A stretch of DNA of 64,000 bases from Phapecoctavirus DIJ07P2, in the sequence record OZ035771.1. One strand, given 5' to 3'. The translations under genes were made by a program, and so were the position numbers. Below are positions 7,426-13,491 of the stretch, in pieces (position 1 is the stretch's first letter; the number at the start of each line of letters is the position of its first letter). The notes under the pieces were generated by a model. It saw only the letters and a program-made list of their open reading frames with translations, was not told the DNA's origin and made no database searches.

Positions 7426-7430
7426 GAAAA

Positions 7431-7457
7431 GGAGCCATTTGGCTCCTTTCTTTTATT
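7431..7457. terminator. probable bidirectional terminator between convergent genes
   Basis: ggagccatttggctcc hairpin flanked by T-rich tract on plus strand and A-rich tract upstream. Confidence 0.55.
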
Positions 7458-7489
7458 CAGCGTTCAACCTCATACACTTGAAACAAACC

Positions 7490-8422
7490 TTAGAAGCAAT
7501 GCAGGAAGTTTCTACCATATTGCAGTCCAATAGGGGCAAATGGAATATCATCGTCGAAGTCCATTGGAGGTTCTTCTTGATTACTTGGAGTTGGTTCTGG
7601 TTGTGGTTCAGGTTTCTTAACTTCTTTCTTCTCTTCTTTCTTAGGCTGTTCTGCGGAACCACGAATGGCAGCAGCAACTTTATCAGACAGAGCCAGAACT
7701 TTACGAGCAGAATCAATCAGATCTTCTACAGAGACAGTCTTAATGGTATGGTCTTTACAAGCATTGAGAATAGCGTGACCAACAGATGCCCCAAGATCAT
7801 AATCATTAATATCAACACCACGAGATTCAGCAACTTCCGATTTCAGCGTGACGGTTGCAGATTGAACAACCCCAGCGATATCGAAAGCATCGCCTTTAAC
7901 ACCATTACGAATCAGTTCCAGTGCACCATTTACTGCGTGACCAGTTTCCAGACCTACAGTATCACGTTTTTTATAGGACTGCTTAGGAGCAGCATCGTTG
8001 GAACCTTTATTGCCAGAAGATTTGTTAGACTTCTGAACACCATCGGTAGACAATACTGTAATACGAGATTTTTTAGTATTGTAGTAAGTCTTACCGCCTT
8101 TATTATCAACGCGATCAATATCAATACTTACTTCTACACCTTTTTCAATAGTGATCCAATTATCACCTTCTTTGACTTGCAGGTTTTCATAACCTTCTTT
8201 CAGTTCAATGTCACCAAGAGAAATCCAAACACCTTTCTCATCTGGTTTAGCACCTTTCTCTTTCAGAACAAGAGAAGCTCGGTGAGTTGAAACAATCGTT
8301 TTTCCTTCCCAATGAAAAGTTTTAGGTTCAGCGAATTTATCCAGTTTAACGTAGTCTACGATACCAGTTGCATAAGTTACGGTTTTGCCTTTACGATCAG
8401 TTTCAGTATTAATTACGGACAT
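7490..8422 (-). CDS. SSB-like ssDNA-binding protein candidate carrying an E. coli SSB-type acidic tail motif
   Basis: ATG 8422 with SD gaggag; Lys/Glu/Pro-rich linker then EEPPMDFDDDIPF (last 9 residues as I recall the E. coli SSB C-terminus), followed by 15 further codons before the stop. Confidence 0.45.
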   Translation of the reverse strand: MSVINTETDRKGKTVTYATGIVDYVKLDKFAEPKTFHWEGKTIVSTHRASLVLKEKGAKPDEKGVWISLGDIELKEGYENLQVKEGDNWITIEKGVEVSIDIDRVDNKGGKTYYNTKKSRITVLSTDGVQKSNKSSGNKGSNDAAPKQSYKKRDTVGLETGHAVNGALELIRNGVKGDAFDIAGVVQSATVTLKSEVAESRGVDINDYDLGASVGHAILNACKDHTIKTVSVEDLIDSARKVLALSDKVAAAIRGSAEQPKKEEKKEVKKPEPQPEPTPSNQEEPPMDFDDDIPFAPIGLQYGRNFLHCF

Positions 8423-8876: not shown

Positions 8877-9470
8877 TTACCAAGGAATATCATCTTCTTC
8901 CAATCGGGTATCTACTTGAGGTGGACGTGGAACCTTAACCTCTTTCACAAAACGAAGATACGGGAAACGTGTAGCAATTTTAATAACGTGTTTGGCATCT
9001 TCTCTAACATCTTTGTGCAAGAAGCAGATCCCTGTTTCCAAAGTTGTTTCAAAATCTTTAGAGTAATAACAATCCTTTCCATCAAATGCAGCCTGGCAGA
9101 TGGACAGATCAAACTCATTTAGAAAGGTTGTCATTACGCTTGGTTCCATAATCATAAGGTTGCAAAGCTGACCATCACGTTCAAACTCAAAAACGTGTTT
9201 AAGACCAGTAACACCTTCATAATTGTCAGAAGCCTCTTTGTTTCCTAGTTTACGAATATTGGTTCCCATTAAAGCAGATGCAATTAATCCTTGTATTTGT
9301 TCTTCAGTCCGATGTGCAGGAAGGGACGTATAGAAATCCAGATCACGTCCAGCAATATCAAGAATACGCCAATCACGAACAGCACCGCCAGCCAAGACAG
9401 AATTAGGATCAGCGATCTTTAATACGGTAAGAATTTCTTTGGCAATATTGATTTGTTTTGATTTAGTCAT
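8877..9470 (-). CDS. Pol-beta-superfamily nucleotidyltransferase (CCA-adding/poly(A) polymerase head-like)
   Basis: motif LAGGAVRD-x9-GRDLDF (GGxVRD...DxD); C-terminus ...RLEEDDIPW resembles an SSB-type tail. Confidence 0.45.
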   Translation of the reverse strand: MTKSKQINIAKEILTVLKIADPNSVLAGGAVRDWRILDIAGRDLDFYTSLPAHRTEEQIQGLIASALMGTNIRKLGNKEASDNYEGVTGLKHVFEFERDGQLCNLMIMEPSVMTTFLNEFDLSICQAAFDGKDCYYSKDFETTLETGICFLHKDVREDAKHVIKIATRFPYLRFVKEVKVPRPPQVDTRLEEDDIPW

Positions 9471-10099: not shown

Positions 10100-12697
10100 T
10101 CAATGACAGGATGCCCAGGAATTACCCACATCATATCCGGCAGTAAGCTGAACATTAAGATTGTAAAATTCTCCAGCCTTAGTAACAGCTAAGGCAGCAA
10201 GTTCACCTGCCCGACTATAGGCTGTAAACCATCCACCTTTGGGAGATTCATGAATGTTAGCCCAAATTTGCCCTGTCTCTTTTTCCTTATTATGCTTCCA
10301 TTCTTCGACTTTAGCAAGGCATTCTTTATCAATCTTCTTTTGTTCTTCAGGATCGTCTACTTTCTTCCAACCTAATGATTCAGGTGAAAACCATTTAAAT
10401 TCTACAAGGTTACGAGAAACTTCAAGCTGGGCTTCATCGTGATATGCAATCATTTGTTGCACGAAATCTTTATTCTTCCAGTCATCTTTAAAGAAGTCAA
10501 CACTTAGTCCTTCTTCTTCGATCATGTCGTCATAAATAACCATTGCACGTTTAGCACAGATAACCCCACCACTTTGGAACAGAGAGTTAAGAATCGCGTG
10601 AGCAGAACGAGTAGGAACCTTACGACCGTCAATACCCAAAACATATTGTTTACCAGTCTTAACCCAAAAATCGTTTAAACGTTCTTTAAGACGCGCCAAT
10701 GGGAATGCAGCTTCCCAGAAAGCATCAAACACCAATTGACCTGTAAACTTATCGCTACCAATTGTTTTAGCAACCTTGTCGGCTTGTGCACCATAGGTAA
10801 TACCATACTTAACAGATTTAGCAGGACTACGTTCAAATTTACGTCCAATAGTTTCAGTGATACGTTTTGCCATCATTGTGTGAACATCGTTAGGTTTCTC
10901 TAACAACAGAGCGTTACAATATTCGTGTGGCTCCGGCTCGTACCGCCAACAGTAGTGTGATTCAATTTTTGCTTCCAAAGAGTCGAAGTCGTAGCCGATC
11001 TGGAAGTATTTAGGAACCTCTACACCAAACAAGTTACGCATCTCCCATCCAAACAAAGATGTGACACGAGGGATATTGGCTACAGACCTATGCTTCATAC
11101 GAGAGGTTGCAGCATCACATGTAGCGGCTGGGGTAGGAATACGCCCATCTGCCCTTACTGCGGCTAAGAAACCTTTATCGTATTCTTGATCTTCTTCATC
11201 TTCTTCCCAATCAGCACCGCCACCTAAAATAGAGTTCCTACGATGCTTATACGTTAAGTATTCTACAATCTGAGTAGCATAAGGAAATTTCTCACCCAAA
11301 GCTTGCAGGTTAGGACAAATTTCTTTTTCCTGACCTTTGGTAAAACATGGGTTAGTCAATACTTTAAGACCGCGACCTTTACCTTTTGCTATACGCTCTT
11401 GAATCTTCCTTTCCAAGGTTTCCGGTGTGCACTCCAGATGATCACAACGATCCTGACAAAAATTAGAAGATAGAGTTTGCTCAACGTAAGCTCGAATACC
11501 TTTCTGAAGTTCTTCCTCGCTCTTTTTAATCTTGGTGCCAGATTTAAGAGTCAAGTCTTTATCTTTATATTCAGACGGTACCCAACCTAATCCTACAAGC
11601 CAGTTTTTAATATGGGTTGTATCGTTCAATGTTGCAGGGATATTAGGATCACACAAAGGCTCATCTGCTGCAACTGGCAGTTTCCACTCTTTACCCAACA
11701 TAACTAACCACCAATCGCCATCCCTCTCTTCCAAATGACCATCATGTTTCTTAGCAAAATTGATCATATGGTTAGTTGGCTCTAAGTTCTTTTTAATTTG
11801 CAACTTAGGTGGAATAAAAGCCTTAAGATAACCTTTTGTTGCTGGTTTAGGTGGCAAAATAGGCTCAACGAGTAAACGAAGACGCTCCATTTCTGCATCC
11901 AAAAAAGCAAGGTTCTCTTCTGCTTGCTTCATGTTAAAAGCAAACCCACGGTGTTCCTGGCGTGTAATAATGTCTGCTACACGTTGTTCAAGTTCAAATG
12001 GACCTTCCCATTTATCATAATCACCCCATTCTTCCATGAGGTAATTATATACACTTGTGTTGGCTTTGTTATCATAGATACAGTAATAAAGCATATCCGC
12101 AGCAAAAGTCTTAAATCGATCTTCTTCTGGAATCTCTTTACGGAAATCTATTTTTACATCACCCCCTGCCTTTCGAGAAAGTGCTGCCAAGCTATGTCCT
12201 GATTTGCCCTCAATCTTTCGATCTGGGTTTAACACTTTACTCAAAATCAAGGAGTCAATAAGTTTTACCTTATTTTTGCCCCACGTATTATATTTAACAC
12301 TGTAATCTAAGCCATAAAACAGTTTTGTAGCCAACCAGTCATAGTTGATACCGTTGTGAGCCACAGCCATTTCAACCAGATATTCAGGCTTATCTTTAAA
12401 ATAACCTTCATGATTAATAAAGTCTGGGAAATCTTTTAGTTGAAAATGTGTGTAATCTTGCGCCACATACTCTTTAAGAACATATGTGTATTTACCATCT
12501 GACTCTTCATAAGGACGCCCATCAAAGATGTATTTAGGGCCATCGTGGAAAGCTACTATTTCTCCTGTTTCATGGTTCTCTAAGACAATACAGTGCATTT
12601 GAAATGTGTCTTTGAGACGATAAGGACTAGCTAAATAATCGATAGTATCATTATTCAACAATCCATTTGCTTCAATATCCCATGTAAACTTACTCAC
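10100..12697 (-). CDS. DNA polymerase, family A, with 3'-5' exonuclease domain
   Basis: 865 aa; Exo I-like FTWDIEANGL; motif B-like RSPAKSVKYGITYGAQ; motif C-like IAYHDEAQLEV; GTG start 12697 with SD aaaggagg. Confidence 0.85.
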   Translation of the reverse strand: MSKFTWDIEANGLLNNDTIDYLASPYRLKDTFQMHCIVLENHETGEIVAFHDGPKYIFDGRPYEESDGKYTYVLKEYVAQDYTHFQLKDFPDFINHEGYFKDKPEYLVEMAVAHNGINYDWLATKLFYGLDYSVKYNTWGKNKVKLIDSLILSKVLNPDRKIEGKSGHSLAALSRKAGGDVKIDFRKEIPEEDRFKTFAADMLYYCIYDNKANTSVYNYLMEEWGDYDKWEGPFELEQRVADIITRQEHRGFAFNMKQAEENLAFLDAEMERLRLLVEPILPPKPATKGYLKAFIPPKLQIKKNLEPTNHMINFAKKHDGHLEERDGDWWLVMLGKEWKLPVAADEPLCDPNIPATLNDTTHIKNWLVGLGWVPSEYKDKDLTLKSGTKIKKSEEELQKGIRAYVEQTLSSNFCQDRCDHLECTPETLERKIQERIAKGKGRGLKVLTNPCFTKGQEKEICPNLQALGEKFPYATQIVEYLTYKHRRNSILGGGADWEEDEEDQEYDKGFLAAVRADGRIPTPAATCDAATSRMKHRSVANIPRVTSLFGWEMRNLFGVEVPKYFQIGYDFDSLEAKIESHYCWRYEPEPHEYCNALLLEKPNDVHTMMAKRITETIGRKFERSPAKSVKYGITYGAQADKVAKTIGSDKFTGQLVFDAFWEAAFPLARLKERLNDFWVKTGKQYVLGIDGRKVPTRSAHAILNSLFQSGGVICAKRAMVIYDDMIEEEGLSVDFFKDDWKNKDFVQQMIAYHDEAQLEVSRNLVEFKWFSPESLGWKKVDDPEEQKKIDKECLAKVEEWKHNKEKETGQIWANIHESPKGGWFTAYSRAGELAALAVTKAGEFYNLNVQLTAGYDVGNSWASCH

Positions 12698-13491
12698 TAT
12701 TCCTCCTTTCTAATGTTCTCCAGAACCCACTGAAGTTCTTTTAAACTTAAACTTCTTACTCCCGCAGTTTTACTAGCTTCAGTTTTAAGTAACGGGTAAG
12801 CCTCAATGATACGTGTTTTAAGATCAGAAGTCAAGGCTTTTAAAAAATAGGTAGATGCTTCAGATAAAGAATCTTCTTCTGTTAGCACTTTACCTGCGCT
12901 TGCTCCGGCTCTCCTAACGGCTATGTCGTAGTCTTTGCTGTTACCTAATACGAACAGTCGATTCTCTCCTAAAACAACGGGAGAACGCTTCTGGCTGCGT
13001 TTAATCCATATTTGGAATACACAAGGAACATCCCAAGGTTCTCCATGAAGAATAAAAGATCCTTTGGGACACTCTTCTTCGTGAAGAAGATGCATATAAG
13101 GATTTAGTTTGTGTGCAAAAAAGATTTTTTGAAATGTGCGAGGTAAGATAAAACAAATACCACCTTCGTTATCCAGCATTTCAGCGCAATGGTTAAAGAA
13201 CTTAATGGCAAGACTAGCGTTTTTTCCGAATGGAGGATTACCAACAAAAGCCGTTACACTACCAACAGACTCAACAGATTGAGCTAAAAAATCTGCCTCA
13301 ATACAATCTTCAAACTTAGGGTCAATATCAAAAGAAGTTATGTTTTTAAAGCAAGAAGAGAAAGCTCCTTCTCCCGCAGATGGTTCTACGTAGTTAGCTT
13401 CCTCTCCAAAAATTTCTTTGATCTTATCACATAAGAACCCCGCATAAGCGGGGTTAGTGTAATATTGATCAAGTGTGTTCAACTTGCTCAA
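12697..13491 (-). CDS. DNA N6-adenine methyltransferase
   Basis: motif I-like EPSAGEGAF and motif IV NPPF; TTG start 13491 with SD aaggagg. Confidence 0.55.
   Translation of the reverse strand: MSKLNTLDQYYTNPAYAGFLCDKIKEIFGEEANYVEPSAGEGAFSSCFKNITSFDIDPKFEDCIEADFLAQSVESVGSVTAFVGNPPFGKNASLAIKFFNHCAEMLDNEGGICFILPRTFQKIFFAHKLNPYMHLLHEEECPKGSFILHGEPWDVPCVFQIWIKRSQKRSPVVLGENRLFVLGNSKDYDIAVRRAGASAGKVLTEEDSLSEASTYFLKALTSDLKTRIIEAYPLLKTEASKTAGVRSLSLKELQWVLENIRKEE

What the first reader, a model, noticed from the sequence alone, without database searches (positions are those of the whole stretch)
7490..8422. SSB-type C-terminal tail (MDFDDDIPF) present but internal: 15 extra codons follow it
The protein has a Lys/Glu/Pro-rich linker followed by EEPPMDFDDDIPF, whose last nine residues match, as far as I recall it, the C-terminal tail of E. 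coli SSB that docks many genome-maintenance proteins. Here the reading frame continues for 15 more codons (APIGLQYGRNFLHCF), so the terminal Phe would not be C-terminal, whereas a free C-terminal Phe is normally needed for partner binding. Possibilities: a point change or sequencing error removed the stop; the protein is proteolytically processed; or the phage makes a masked tail as a regulated decoy of the host SSB interactome. The N-terminal part is not obviously E. coli SSB-like, so this may be a different ssDNA-binding fold that has acquired the host tail.
Basis: partly seen in the sequence, partly recalled or inferred. Interest (0 to 1): 0.6.

Follow-up and report, generated by a model that had tools for sequence, protein, structure and literature searches.

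The report
Conserved cap on phage SSB tails
The 15 "extra" residues after the host-like SSB tail are not an error: they are a conserved, apparently undescribed end-piece that many phages of enterobacteria and vibrios add to their single-strand DNA-binding proteins, burying the terminal phenylalanine that host partner proteins normally grip.

Summary
ORF 7490..8422(-) encodes 310 aa ending …MDFDDDIPF(295) + APIGLQYGRNFLHCF. The window is a Phapecoctavirus, a phAPEC8-like coliphage.

A lost stop codon or sequencing error is refuted. Most close relatives end at IPF*. A minority carry exactly this extension, always beside an HNH endonuclease gene or its relic. The window keeps a 21-codon relic at 7453-7518.

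The extension is a conserved module with consensus F-A-P-[IV]-G-L-[QPM]-[YFH]-[PG]-x3-[IL]-[HY]-[ACSV]-[ILM]. It is 14-17 aa long and, with few exceptions, at the extreme C-terminus directly after IPF. I found 115 unique versions on unrelated bodies:
- the window's OB-plus-helical family
- classical E. coli-like OB SSBs of lambdoid prophages (HK75, mEp235)
- Vibrio phages
- large myoviruses such as PVP-SE1

One variant alone is present in at least 304 of 5,426 complete E. coli genomes. Synonymous codon turnover shows protein-level selection. Presence is patchy, with about 20 gains or losses in the family, so the module is exchanged horizontally.

Function is inferred. One extra Gly on E. coli SSB already abolishes χ binding, so the cap should block carboxylate-dependent docking. 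Its conservation implies a specific but unknown role. No paper, curated model or solved structure that I could search covers it.

The parts
7490..8422 (-). SSB-like gene, 310 aa (phrog_4477 family)
   Evidence: ORF. phrog_4477 match E = 4.5e-97. Annotated 'single-stranded DNA-binding protein' in several related phage records.
8048..8422 (-). N-terminal OB-fold-like beta domain (aa 1-125)
7664..7957 (-). Four-helix domain (aa 156-253) of unknown role, possibly oligomerisation
   Evidence: AF2 pLDDT about 95, helices 156-172, 179-201, 208-223 and 232-253. Only generic helical matches were found.
7565..7663 (-). Disordered Lys/Glu/Pro-rich linker (aa 254-286)
   Evidence: AF2 pLDDT about 50 with no secondary structure. 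Composition read directly from the sequence.
7538..7564 (-). Host-type SSB tip MDFDDDIPF (aa 287-295)
   Evidence: Identical to the E. coli SSB C-terminus. D288, D290, D292, P294 and F295 are invariant or nearly invariant in the family.
7493..7537 (-). Conserved 15-aa cap APIGLQYGRNFLHCF (aa 296-310); stop at 7490-7492
   Evidence: Same motif in 115 unique tails on several scaffolds. Synonymous codon turnover with amino-acid conservation.
7453..7518 (-). Relic of an HNH endonuclease gene: 21-codon mini-ORF MVETSCIASKVCFKC|MRLNAE*. It starts inside the cap-coding region in another frame.
   Evidence: The intact gene at this position in nieznany and Mt1B1_P17 begins MVETSCIASKVCFKCGVLKPL... and ends ...GEGLNAE*. 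phrog_2340 'endonuclease' match E = 1.5e-48.
7427..7450 (.). Bidirectional terminator hairpin between the convergent SSB and tail-protein genes. It also marks the right boundary of the variable segment.
   Evidence: Terminator-like hairpin called on both strands. The sequence is shared by all allele types.

Best explanation
The 15 extra codons encode a conserved C-terminal 'cap'. Its consensus is IPF-A-P-[IV]-G-L-[QPM]-[YFH]-[PG]-x3-[IL]-[HY]-[ACSV]-[ILM]-COOH.

Shown: many phages and prophages of gamma-proteobacteria fuse this cap directly onto a host-type SSB tip. It is an alternative, protein-selected ending of phage SSB genes. It is swapped horizontally between unrelated SSB bodies. In the Phapecoctavirus comparison the left boundary of the swapped segment falls at the last codon of the tip-coding DNA, which is conserved and so could serve as the recombination arm (inferred). 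In Phapecoctavirus the capped allele is always linked to an HNH endonuclease gene placed immediately after the SSB stop codon. The window carries the capped allele together with an internally deleted relic of that endonuclease.

Inferred: the cap makes Phe295 internal, so the free alpha-carboxylate that host partner pockets use is gone. The capped SSB should therefore coat phage ssDNA without recruiting the host SSB interactome (chi, ExoI, RecQ, PriA and others). Positions +1 to +5 of the cap are as conserved as the tip itself, which suggests that tip plus cap acts as one composite motif with its own ligand. That ligand is still unknown and is probably host-encoded.
For: - The allele is real and recurrent. 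It occurs in five other GenBank genomes and in a cluster of 110 member sequences.
- Plain and capped alleles differ by a replaced segment that starts at the Phe codon. No SNP clustering is seen upstream.
- In the window's own family 28 of 119 members are capped, with about 20 state changes on the body tree. Cap subtypes do not follow the body phylogeny.
- At least 74 IMG/VR loci encode classical OB-fold SSBs with the same cap directly after EPPMDFDDDIPF.
- A profile search of 1.84 billion representative proteins finds 56 clusters; in 42 the match runs to the last one or two residues of the protein, on many different bodies.
- Motif statistics from 115 unique tails: +1 Ala 93%, +2 Pro 94%, +5 Leu 99%.
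- Protein-level selection: Ala uses 4 codons, Pro 4 and the invariant Leu 6. The P0010 lineage has an identical 15-aa cap with 6 synonymous differences and no HNH.
- Named carriers include HK75, mEp235, g341c, PVP-SE1, KB57, GAP31 and about 45 Vibrio phage records. The HK75-type variant is in at least 304 of 5,426 E. coli genomes.
- All eight capped Phapecoctavirus genomes examined (the window plus seven GenBank phages) carry the HNH gene or its relic.
- Functional precedent: E. coli SSB with one added Gly shows no detectable chi binding and complements only under slow growth (PMC3045619).
Against: - There is no direct evidence on binding, processing or stability.
- The acidic tip is as well conserved in capped as in plain proteins. 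This could mean the tip is still used in the ordinary way, for example after removal of the cap.
- Two AF2 models give no structure or docking for the cap, with pLDDT at or below about 55.
- No phage gene co-varies with the cap.
- Capped and plain phages are both viable, so the phenotypic effect may be small under laboratory conditions.
- If masking were the only aim, any added sequence or loss of the tip would do. The proposed composite ligand is hypothetical.
Confidence: 0.55

Rival explanations
1. Pro-tail. The cap is a removable pro-peptide. A host or phage protease cuts at F295|A296 and releases a normal ...DDDIPF-COOH tip at the right time or place.
For: The tip stays as conserved in capped proteins as in plain ones, and the F-A-P junction is almost invariant. 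That pattern would fit a defined cleavage site.
Against: I know of no cytosolic E. coli endoprotease with this specificity (own knowledge). Carriers range from lambdoid prophages to 150-kb myoviruses with no shared protease nearby. No intermediates or alternative products are visible, and there are no IPF-stop-AP junctions.
Confidence: 0.15
2. Degron. The uncharged, hydrophobic last five residues (FLHCF, AIHAI, LLNCM, YALYA) act as a C-terminal degradation tag for ClpXP, ClpAP or FtsH. This would keep the phage SSB short-lived, with the upstream APIGLQY possibly serving as an adaptor site.
For: All 115 caps have I/L at C-3 and almost all end in I, M, L, F, A or C, while plain tails carry acidic residues in the last five. 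Some caps end ...YALYA, which resembles the ssrA ...YALAA tag. The rule that non-polar C-termini destabilise proteins comes from my own knowledge (Parsell, Silber and Sauer 1990) and was not checked here.
Against: A degron would not need to abut IPF exactly. It also would not explain A-P-[IV]-G-L being as conserved as the tip. There are no stability data.
Confidence: 0.15
3. By-product of the homing endonuclease. The extension is only read-through into the 5' end of an HNH cassette inserted at the SSB stop codon, and it has no function of its own.
For: In Phapecoctavirus the cap is linked to the HNH gene or its relic in every case. The HNH start codon lies inside the cap-coding sequence in another frame.
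Against: The same cap is present without any HNH in the P0010 lineage, differing only by synonymous changes. It is also present in at least 74 OB-fold SSB loci where tblastn finds no HNH. Third-codon-position turnover falls in the SSB reading frame. The endonuclease family profile begins only at the SSB stop codon.
Confidence: 0.05
4. Sequencing error or recent point mutation that removed the stop codon.
For: Most close relatives (ESCO5 type) have a stop directly after IPF.
Against: The two endings differ over a whole segment. The capped form recurs in independent genomes and assemblies and is conserved across families.
Confidence: 0.01

Closest known systems
E. coli SSB C-terminal tip (SSB-Ct, ...MDFDDDIPF-COOH), the docking hub for genome-maintenance proteins
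   Same: The nine-residue tip is identical, it is preceded by a disordered linker, and the N-terminal domain has an OB fold.
   Different: The tip is not terminal: 15 conserved residues follow it. The body has no sequence match to Pfam or NCBIfam SSB models outside the tail and carries an extra four-helix domain.
Engineered SSB+Gly, E. coli SSB with one added C-terminal residue (Naue et al., PMC3045619)
   Same: Phe177 becomes internal and the alpha-carboxylate is displaced.
   Different: SSB+Gly is a laboratory mutant with a loss of function. Here the added piece is natural, 14-17 aa long, conserved and widespread.
Phage SSB tails that address phage partners: HK620 SSB (NDYPPF) with Sak4, and T7 gp2.5 (C-terminal Phe) with T7 polymerase and helicase
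   Same: A phage SSB uses a short acidic/aromatic C-terminal tail for partner choice (PMC5928155; T7 from my own knowledge).
   Different: In those cases the aromatic residue is still the last one. None has a conserved peptide after the tip.
Free-standing HNH homing endonuclease genes inserted between conserved phage genes (intronless homing, as in T-even phages)
   Same: There is a presence/absence polymorphism at a fixed site right after a conserved gene. Two endonuclease variants occupy the same site, and there is a degraded relic.
   Different: No cleavage site was determined. No co-conversion tract is visible upstream.

Membership tests
Bacterial-type SSB (OB fold + disordered linker + acidic tip) | OB-fold ssDNA-binding domain | tested here: met
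Bacterial-type SSB (OB fold + disordered linker + acidic tip) | Sequence membership in Pfam SSB (PF00436) or an NCBIfam ssb model above the curated cut-off | tested here: not met
   No Pfam SSB hit at E <= 1. NF006533 matches only the tail at 22.7 bits against a cut-off of 260.
Bacterial-type SSB (OB fold + disordered linker + acidic tip) | Acidic tip ending in a free ...IPF-COOH | tested here: not met
   The tip is present, but 15 residues follow it.
Bacterial-type SSB (OB fold + disordered linker + acidic tip) | Binds ssDNA and forms an oligomer | not testable with these tools
   Needs biochemistry.
phrog_4477 (phage protein family, function unannotated) | Full-length profile match | tested here: met
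   E = 4.5e-97. The profile ends at residue 295, so the cap lies outside the family model.
Capped-tip SSBs (group defined in this analysis) | [IVL]PF immediately followed by [AS]P[IVL][GT]L | tested here: met
   IPF-APIGL in the window.
   15 aa ending ...FLHCF*. In the profile search 42 of the 56 clusters place the match within one residue of the C-terminus; most of the others stop 3-6 residues short, two lie far from the C-terminus (P0162, P0173), and none of these was examined.
Capped-tip SSBs (group defined in this analysis) | Protein-level purifying selection on the cap | tested here: met
   Synonymous codon diversity at conserved positions. Six synonymous and no non-synonymous differences against the P0010 lineage.
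HNH/endonuclease VII-like phage endonuclease (phrog_2340) | Intact ORF with a CxxC N-terminus and an HNH core | tested here: not met
   The window keeps only 15 N-terminal and about 5 C-terminal codons at 7453-7518. tblastn with the intact protein finds nothing else in the window.
Beta-clamp-binding motif (QL[SD]LF / QLxLxL) | Gln followed by hydrophobic residues at positions 2 and 4-6 | tested here: not met
   By inspection. Gln at +6 is replaced by Pro or Met in 48 of 115 tails, and position +9 is Arg or Asn, not Leu.
ssrA-like / non-polar C-terminal degron | Non-polar last residues recognised by ClpXP, ClpAP or FtsH | tested here: inconclusive
   The composition fits, but recognition cannot be tested here.

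The most novel reading that the evidence does not exclude
Tip plus cap is a dedicated phage motif that binds one particular host protein independently of the terminal carboxylate. The target could be an SSB-interacting nuclease or helicase, or an immune sensor that watches SSB or ssDNA. Capped phage SSBs would then protect phage ssDNA and also selectively hijack or blind one arm of the host SSB hub. The patchy on/off distribution would reflect an arms race.
Probability: 0.25. Interest if true: 0.8.

Novelty: new variant of a known kind. Interest (0 to 1): 0.66.

Why it matters
The SSB tip is the central docking handle of bacterial genome maintenance, and its free C-terminal Phe is regarded as essential. 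This analysis finds a natural, widespread and selected class of phage and prophage SSBs in which that handle is capped by a conserved peptide. They are present in hundreds of sequenced E. coli genomes and in named phages such as HK75 and PVP-SE1. Annotation models stop at IPF, so the cap has gone unnoticed.

The cap offers a ready-made natural experiment on how phages insulate or redirect their ssDNA from host nucleases, helicases, restart proteins and possibly defence sensors. It is also relevant to recombineering, where compatibility between SSB tails and recombinases limits portability.

The Phapecoctavirus plain and capped allele pairs differ essentially only at this end. They could therefore be used directly for competition experiments.

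Tried and rejected
- Sequencing error or point mutation: rejected.
- Recoding: no nearby stop in the +1 or -1 frames after TTT (read), and no IPF-stop-AP junctions in any fetched locus.
- Cap as a pure HNH-cassette by-product: rejected.
- Co-conversion tract upstream of the swap point: none. SNPs are evenly spread.
- Phage-encoded partner found by neighbourhood: capped OB SSBs sit next to Rad52-like (38 of 84), Sak4-like, RdgC-like and Erf-like recombinases, so no single partner emerges.
- Self-docking of the cap: two AF2 models leave it disordered. The second alignment had only 10 sequences, so this is a weak negative.
- Beta-clamp motif: does not fit.
- P1-like phage-plasmid lead, pursued to use the published P1 ssb complementation work: the 95-kb contig L038 is Vibrio-phage-like, and P1 itself was not examined.
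- Literature: the strings DIPFAPIG, IPFAPVT and similar give 0 papers. Keyword searches found nothing on residues after IPF.
- Pfam, NCBIfam and the PDB contain nothing that covers the cap.
- BFVD structural relatives are all uncharacterised.

Full report
**Observation**

The minus-strand ORF 7490..8422 encodes a 310-aa protein.
- Residues 287-295 are MDFDDDIPF (nt 7538-7564).
- They are followed by APIGLQYGRNFLHCF (nt 7493-7537) and a TAA stop (7490-7492).
- The nine-residue tip is identical to the extreme C-terminus of E. coli SSB. PDB chain 1eqq_A ends ...NEPPMDFDDDIPF at residue 178 of 178.
- A curated SSB model (NF006533) and the phage family profile phrog_4477 both align up to residue 295 and stop there.

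The description is therefore correct at the stated coordinates.

**What the genome and the protein are**

The region is 97-99% identical to Phapecoctavirus genomes. These are phAPEC8-like, about 150-kb coliphages of the Stephanstirmvirinae.

The gene lies in a replication cluster on the minus strand: DNA polymerase I, small ORFs, a nucleotidyltransferase, a 130-aa ORF, then this gene. It converges on a tail-protein gene, with a bidirectional terminator hairpin at 7427-7450.

AlphaFold2 with a 49-sequence alignment gave mean pLDDT 80.8:
- a beta domain at aa 1-125
- a disordered stretch at aa 133-149
- a four-helix domain at aa 156-253
- a disordered tail from aa 254 to the end

**Local allele history**

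Phapecoctaviruses show four states at the 3' end of this gene:
- (a) IPF-stop with a short spacer to the terminator. This is the ESCO5 type and the large majority of about 70 records.
- (b) IPF-stop with an endonuclease gene whose start overlaps the stop. This is nepoznato and AV125; there the tip reads MDFDDNIPF.
- (c) IPF plus the 15-aa extension, followed by an endonuclease gene. This is Mt1B1_P17, nieznany and ZCKP1.
- (d) IPF plus the extension with the endonuclease deleted. This is the window, DE16, 536P1, Ec-G1 and ECO340P2.

The endonuclease belongs to phrog_2340 and is related to endonuclease VII and HNH families. Its conserved CxxCG..KPL..F N-terminus begins exactly at the SSB stop codon. 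The only available start codon, the ATG formed by TAT-GGT, lies inside the extension-coding sequence in another reading frame.

The window retains a 21-codon in-frame relic, MVETSCIASKVCFKC|MRLNAE*, at 7453-7518.

Plain and extended alleles differ by a replaced segment that begins at the third base of the Phe codon and ends at the terminator. Upstream SNPs are at background density with no co-conversion tract. A lost stop codon or sequencing error is therefore excluded. The 310-aa form is also a cluster of 110 member sequences from independent assemblies.

**The extension is a conserved module**

This is the main result, and five lines of evidence support it.

1. Within the protein's own family (120 homologues), every C-terminus is one of two forms. 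It is either ...[DE]x[IVL]PF-stop or the same followed by [AS]P[IVL]GL[QP]Y....[HY][AC][ILMF].
2. An IMG/VR scan returned at least 74 loci. Most are 40-50-kb prophage-like contigs encoding classical E. coli-like OB-fold SSBs (MASRGVNKVILVGNLG... and a second MAINTITISGNVGKD type). They end EPPMDFDDDIPF plus APVTLPFPRHAIHAI, APIGLQYPALLNCM, APIGLPYPRHAIYVI and similar.
3. A profile of tip plus extension searched against 1.84 billion representative proteins found 56 clusters. The bodies range from 150 to 480 aa and differ widely. In 42 of the 56 the match runs to the last one or two residues of the protein; most of the rest stop 3-6 residues short, and two lie far from the C-terminus (P0162, a likely read-through, and P0173, a weak internal match in a 1281-aa protein).
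4. Statistics from 115 unique extended tails:
   - Phe(0) 100%, +1 Ala 93%, +2 Pro 94%, +3 Ile/Val, +4 Gly 83% or Thr, +5 Leu 99%
   - +6 Gln/Pro/Met, +7 Tyr/Phe/His, +8 Pro/Gly
   - C-3 Ile/Leu, C-2 His/Tyr/Asn, C-1 small, C0 Ile/Met/Leu
   - length 14-17 aa, with 15 the mode
   - positions +1 to +5 carry as much information as DDDIPF itself
5. Selection acts on the protein. Among 51 distinct nucleotide versions, the conserved Ala uses four codons, Pro four and the invariant Leu six. A lineage whose SSB is only 65% identical has an identical 15-aa cap with six synonymous differences, and it runs straight into the terminator with no endonuclease.

Named carriers include the lambdoid phages HK75, mEp235 and mEpX2, Salmonella g341c, about 45 Vibrio phage records, and the large myoviruses PVP-SE1, KB57, BIS47, GAP31, Mydo and Kashira. 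The HK75-type variant alone occurs in at least 304 of 5,426 complete E. coli genomes, where it is annotated simply as ssb. A species-level genome scan for one strict pattern hit Sodalis, Providencia, Vibrio, Pseudoalteromonas, Oceanisphaera and Glaciecola.

**Mobility**

On a tree of the bodies of 119 family members, 28 are capped, and parsimony needs about 20 state changes (the NJ tree makes this approximate). Cap subtypes cross body lineages: GRNF[LI]HC[FI] occurs on proteins that are 99%, 65% and below 40% identical to the window's. The cap is therefore exchanged horizontally. In the Phapecoctavirus comparison the left boundary of the swap falls at the last codon of the tip-coding DNA. Because that DNA is conserved among SSB genes, it could serve as the recombination arm; this is an inference, and the junction was mapped only in Phapecoctavirus.

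In Phapecoctavirus the capped allele is linked to the HNH gene or its relic in all eight capped genomes examined, the window plus seven GenBank phages. This fits endonuclease-assisted import, but linkage is all that is shown. Elsewhere the cap is not HNH-linked.

**How it probably works**

Shown:
- Phe295 is internal.
- The cap is selected.
- Neither of two AF2 models predicts the cap to fold or dock onto its own protein. Both leave it disordered, and the second alignment was shallow.
- No single phage neighbour tracks the cap. Capped OB SSBs sit beside Rad52-like (38 of 84), Sak4-like, RdgC-like or Erf-like recombinases. The Phapecoctavirus alleles differ only at this end.

From the literature: adding one Gly to E. 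coli SSB removes detectable binding to chi, and that mutant complements only under slow growth, because the terminal carboxylate and Phe are gripped by a basic/hydrophobic pocket (PMC3045619).

Inference: a capped tip cannot dock in the ordinary way. The capped SSB should therefore cover phage ssDNA without recruiting host partners. In recombination modules this could spare 3' ends from SSB-stimulated ExoI; that last point rests on my own knowledge. Because A-P-[IV]-G-L abuts IPF invariantly, tip plus cap most likely forms one composite motif with a specific ligand. That ligand is probably host-encoded, given the range of carriers.

Rivals:
- The cap is cleaved off to unmask the tip. This fits the undiminished conservation of the tip, but no suitable protease is known to me.
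- The uncharged hydrophobic end is a C-terminal degron. The composition fits and some caps end ...YALYA like ssrA, but this does not explain the junction conservation.
- A beta-clamp-binding motif does not fit.

**Comparison with what is known**

By fold and architecture the protein works like an SSB. However, it fails sequence membership in the SSB families, and it fails the defining free ...IPF-COOH end.

The nearest experimental analogue is the loss-of-function SSB+Gly mutant. The nearest natural analogues are phage SSB tails tuned to phage partners (HK620 NDYPPF with Sak4, PMC5928155), and in those the aromatic residue is still terminal.

I found no paper, curated protein model or solved structure covering residues beyond IPF. 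The literature tool covers open-access papers only, so earlier mention elsewhere cannot be excluded.

**Verdict**

The error explanation is refuted. The feature is a new, widespread variant of the SSB C-terminal tail, with a clear local history of an HNH-linked allele and a relic. Its molecular role remains inferred.

Noticed in passing
window 8877-9470 (-): The neighbouring 197-aa nucleotidyltransferase (phrog_10174) ends ...RLEEDDIPW*, an SSB-tip-like acidic/aromatic C-terminus. The ending is kept in close relatives (ESCO5 has ...KLEEEDIPW) but is absent from the orthologue in the P0010 lineage. That orthologue carries a precomputed Pfam Gad2 (PF26128) hit. It was the only other ORF in the window with such an ending.
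   Followed up: partly
L088 954-1385 (phage nepoznato) compared with L090 1551-2045 (nieznany) and L002 1654-2061 (Mt1B1_P17): Two variants of the same endonuclease (phrog_2340) occupy the same site directly after the SSB stop codon. One follows the plain allele and one follows the capped allele. Their C-terminal two-thirds are nearly identical, but their N-termini differ. In nepoznato the SSB tip reads MDFDDNIPF.
   Followed up: partly
L002 1654-2061 (Mt1B1_P17 RefSeq annotation): The endonuclease is annotated from an internal ATG (135 aa). The reading frame and the family profile both support the upstream ATG inside the SSB gene, as annotated in nieznany (164 aa). The CxxC N-terminus is therefore missing from the Mt1B1_P17 annotation.
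   Followed up: yes
window 7589-7594, compared with L004 (phage vB_Ec-G1): Ec-G1 has a 6-nt in-frame deletion in the Lys/Glu/Pro-rich linker, giving 308 aa instead of 310. The linker length is therefore polymorphic.
   Followed up: no
window 10100-12697 (-) and 12697-13491 (-): The DNA polymerase I gene is 2,598 nt here and in DE16 and Mt1B1_P17, but is annotated as 3,333 nt in ESCO5 and Ec-G1. In the window a 264-aa ORF with an NPPF motif (methyltransferase-like) abuts the polymerase start. The cause of the length difference was not examined.
   Followed up: no
proteins P0064 and P0072: Source names look wrong for this family. P0064 is labelled as coming from a 'Cystoviridae sp.' MAG, which would be an RNA phage. 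P0072 is named 'Tail fiber protein' (Salmonella phage SalP219), although it is an SSB-like protein with a capped tip.
   Followed up: no
L085 4009-4740: In the P0010 lineage the slot downstream of the capped SSB gene holds an N6/N4 DNA methyltransferase and a 143-aa ORF instead of an endonuclease. The position after this gene is therefore a general insertion hotspot.
   Followed up: no
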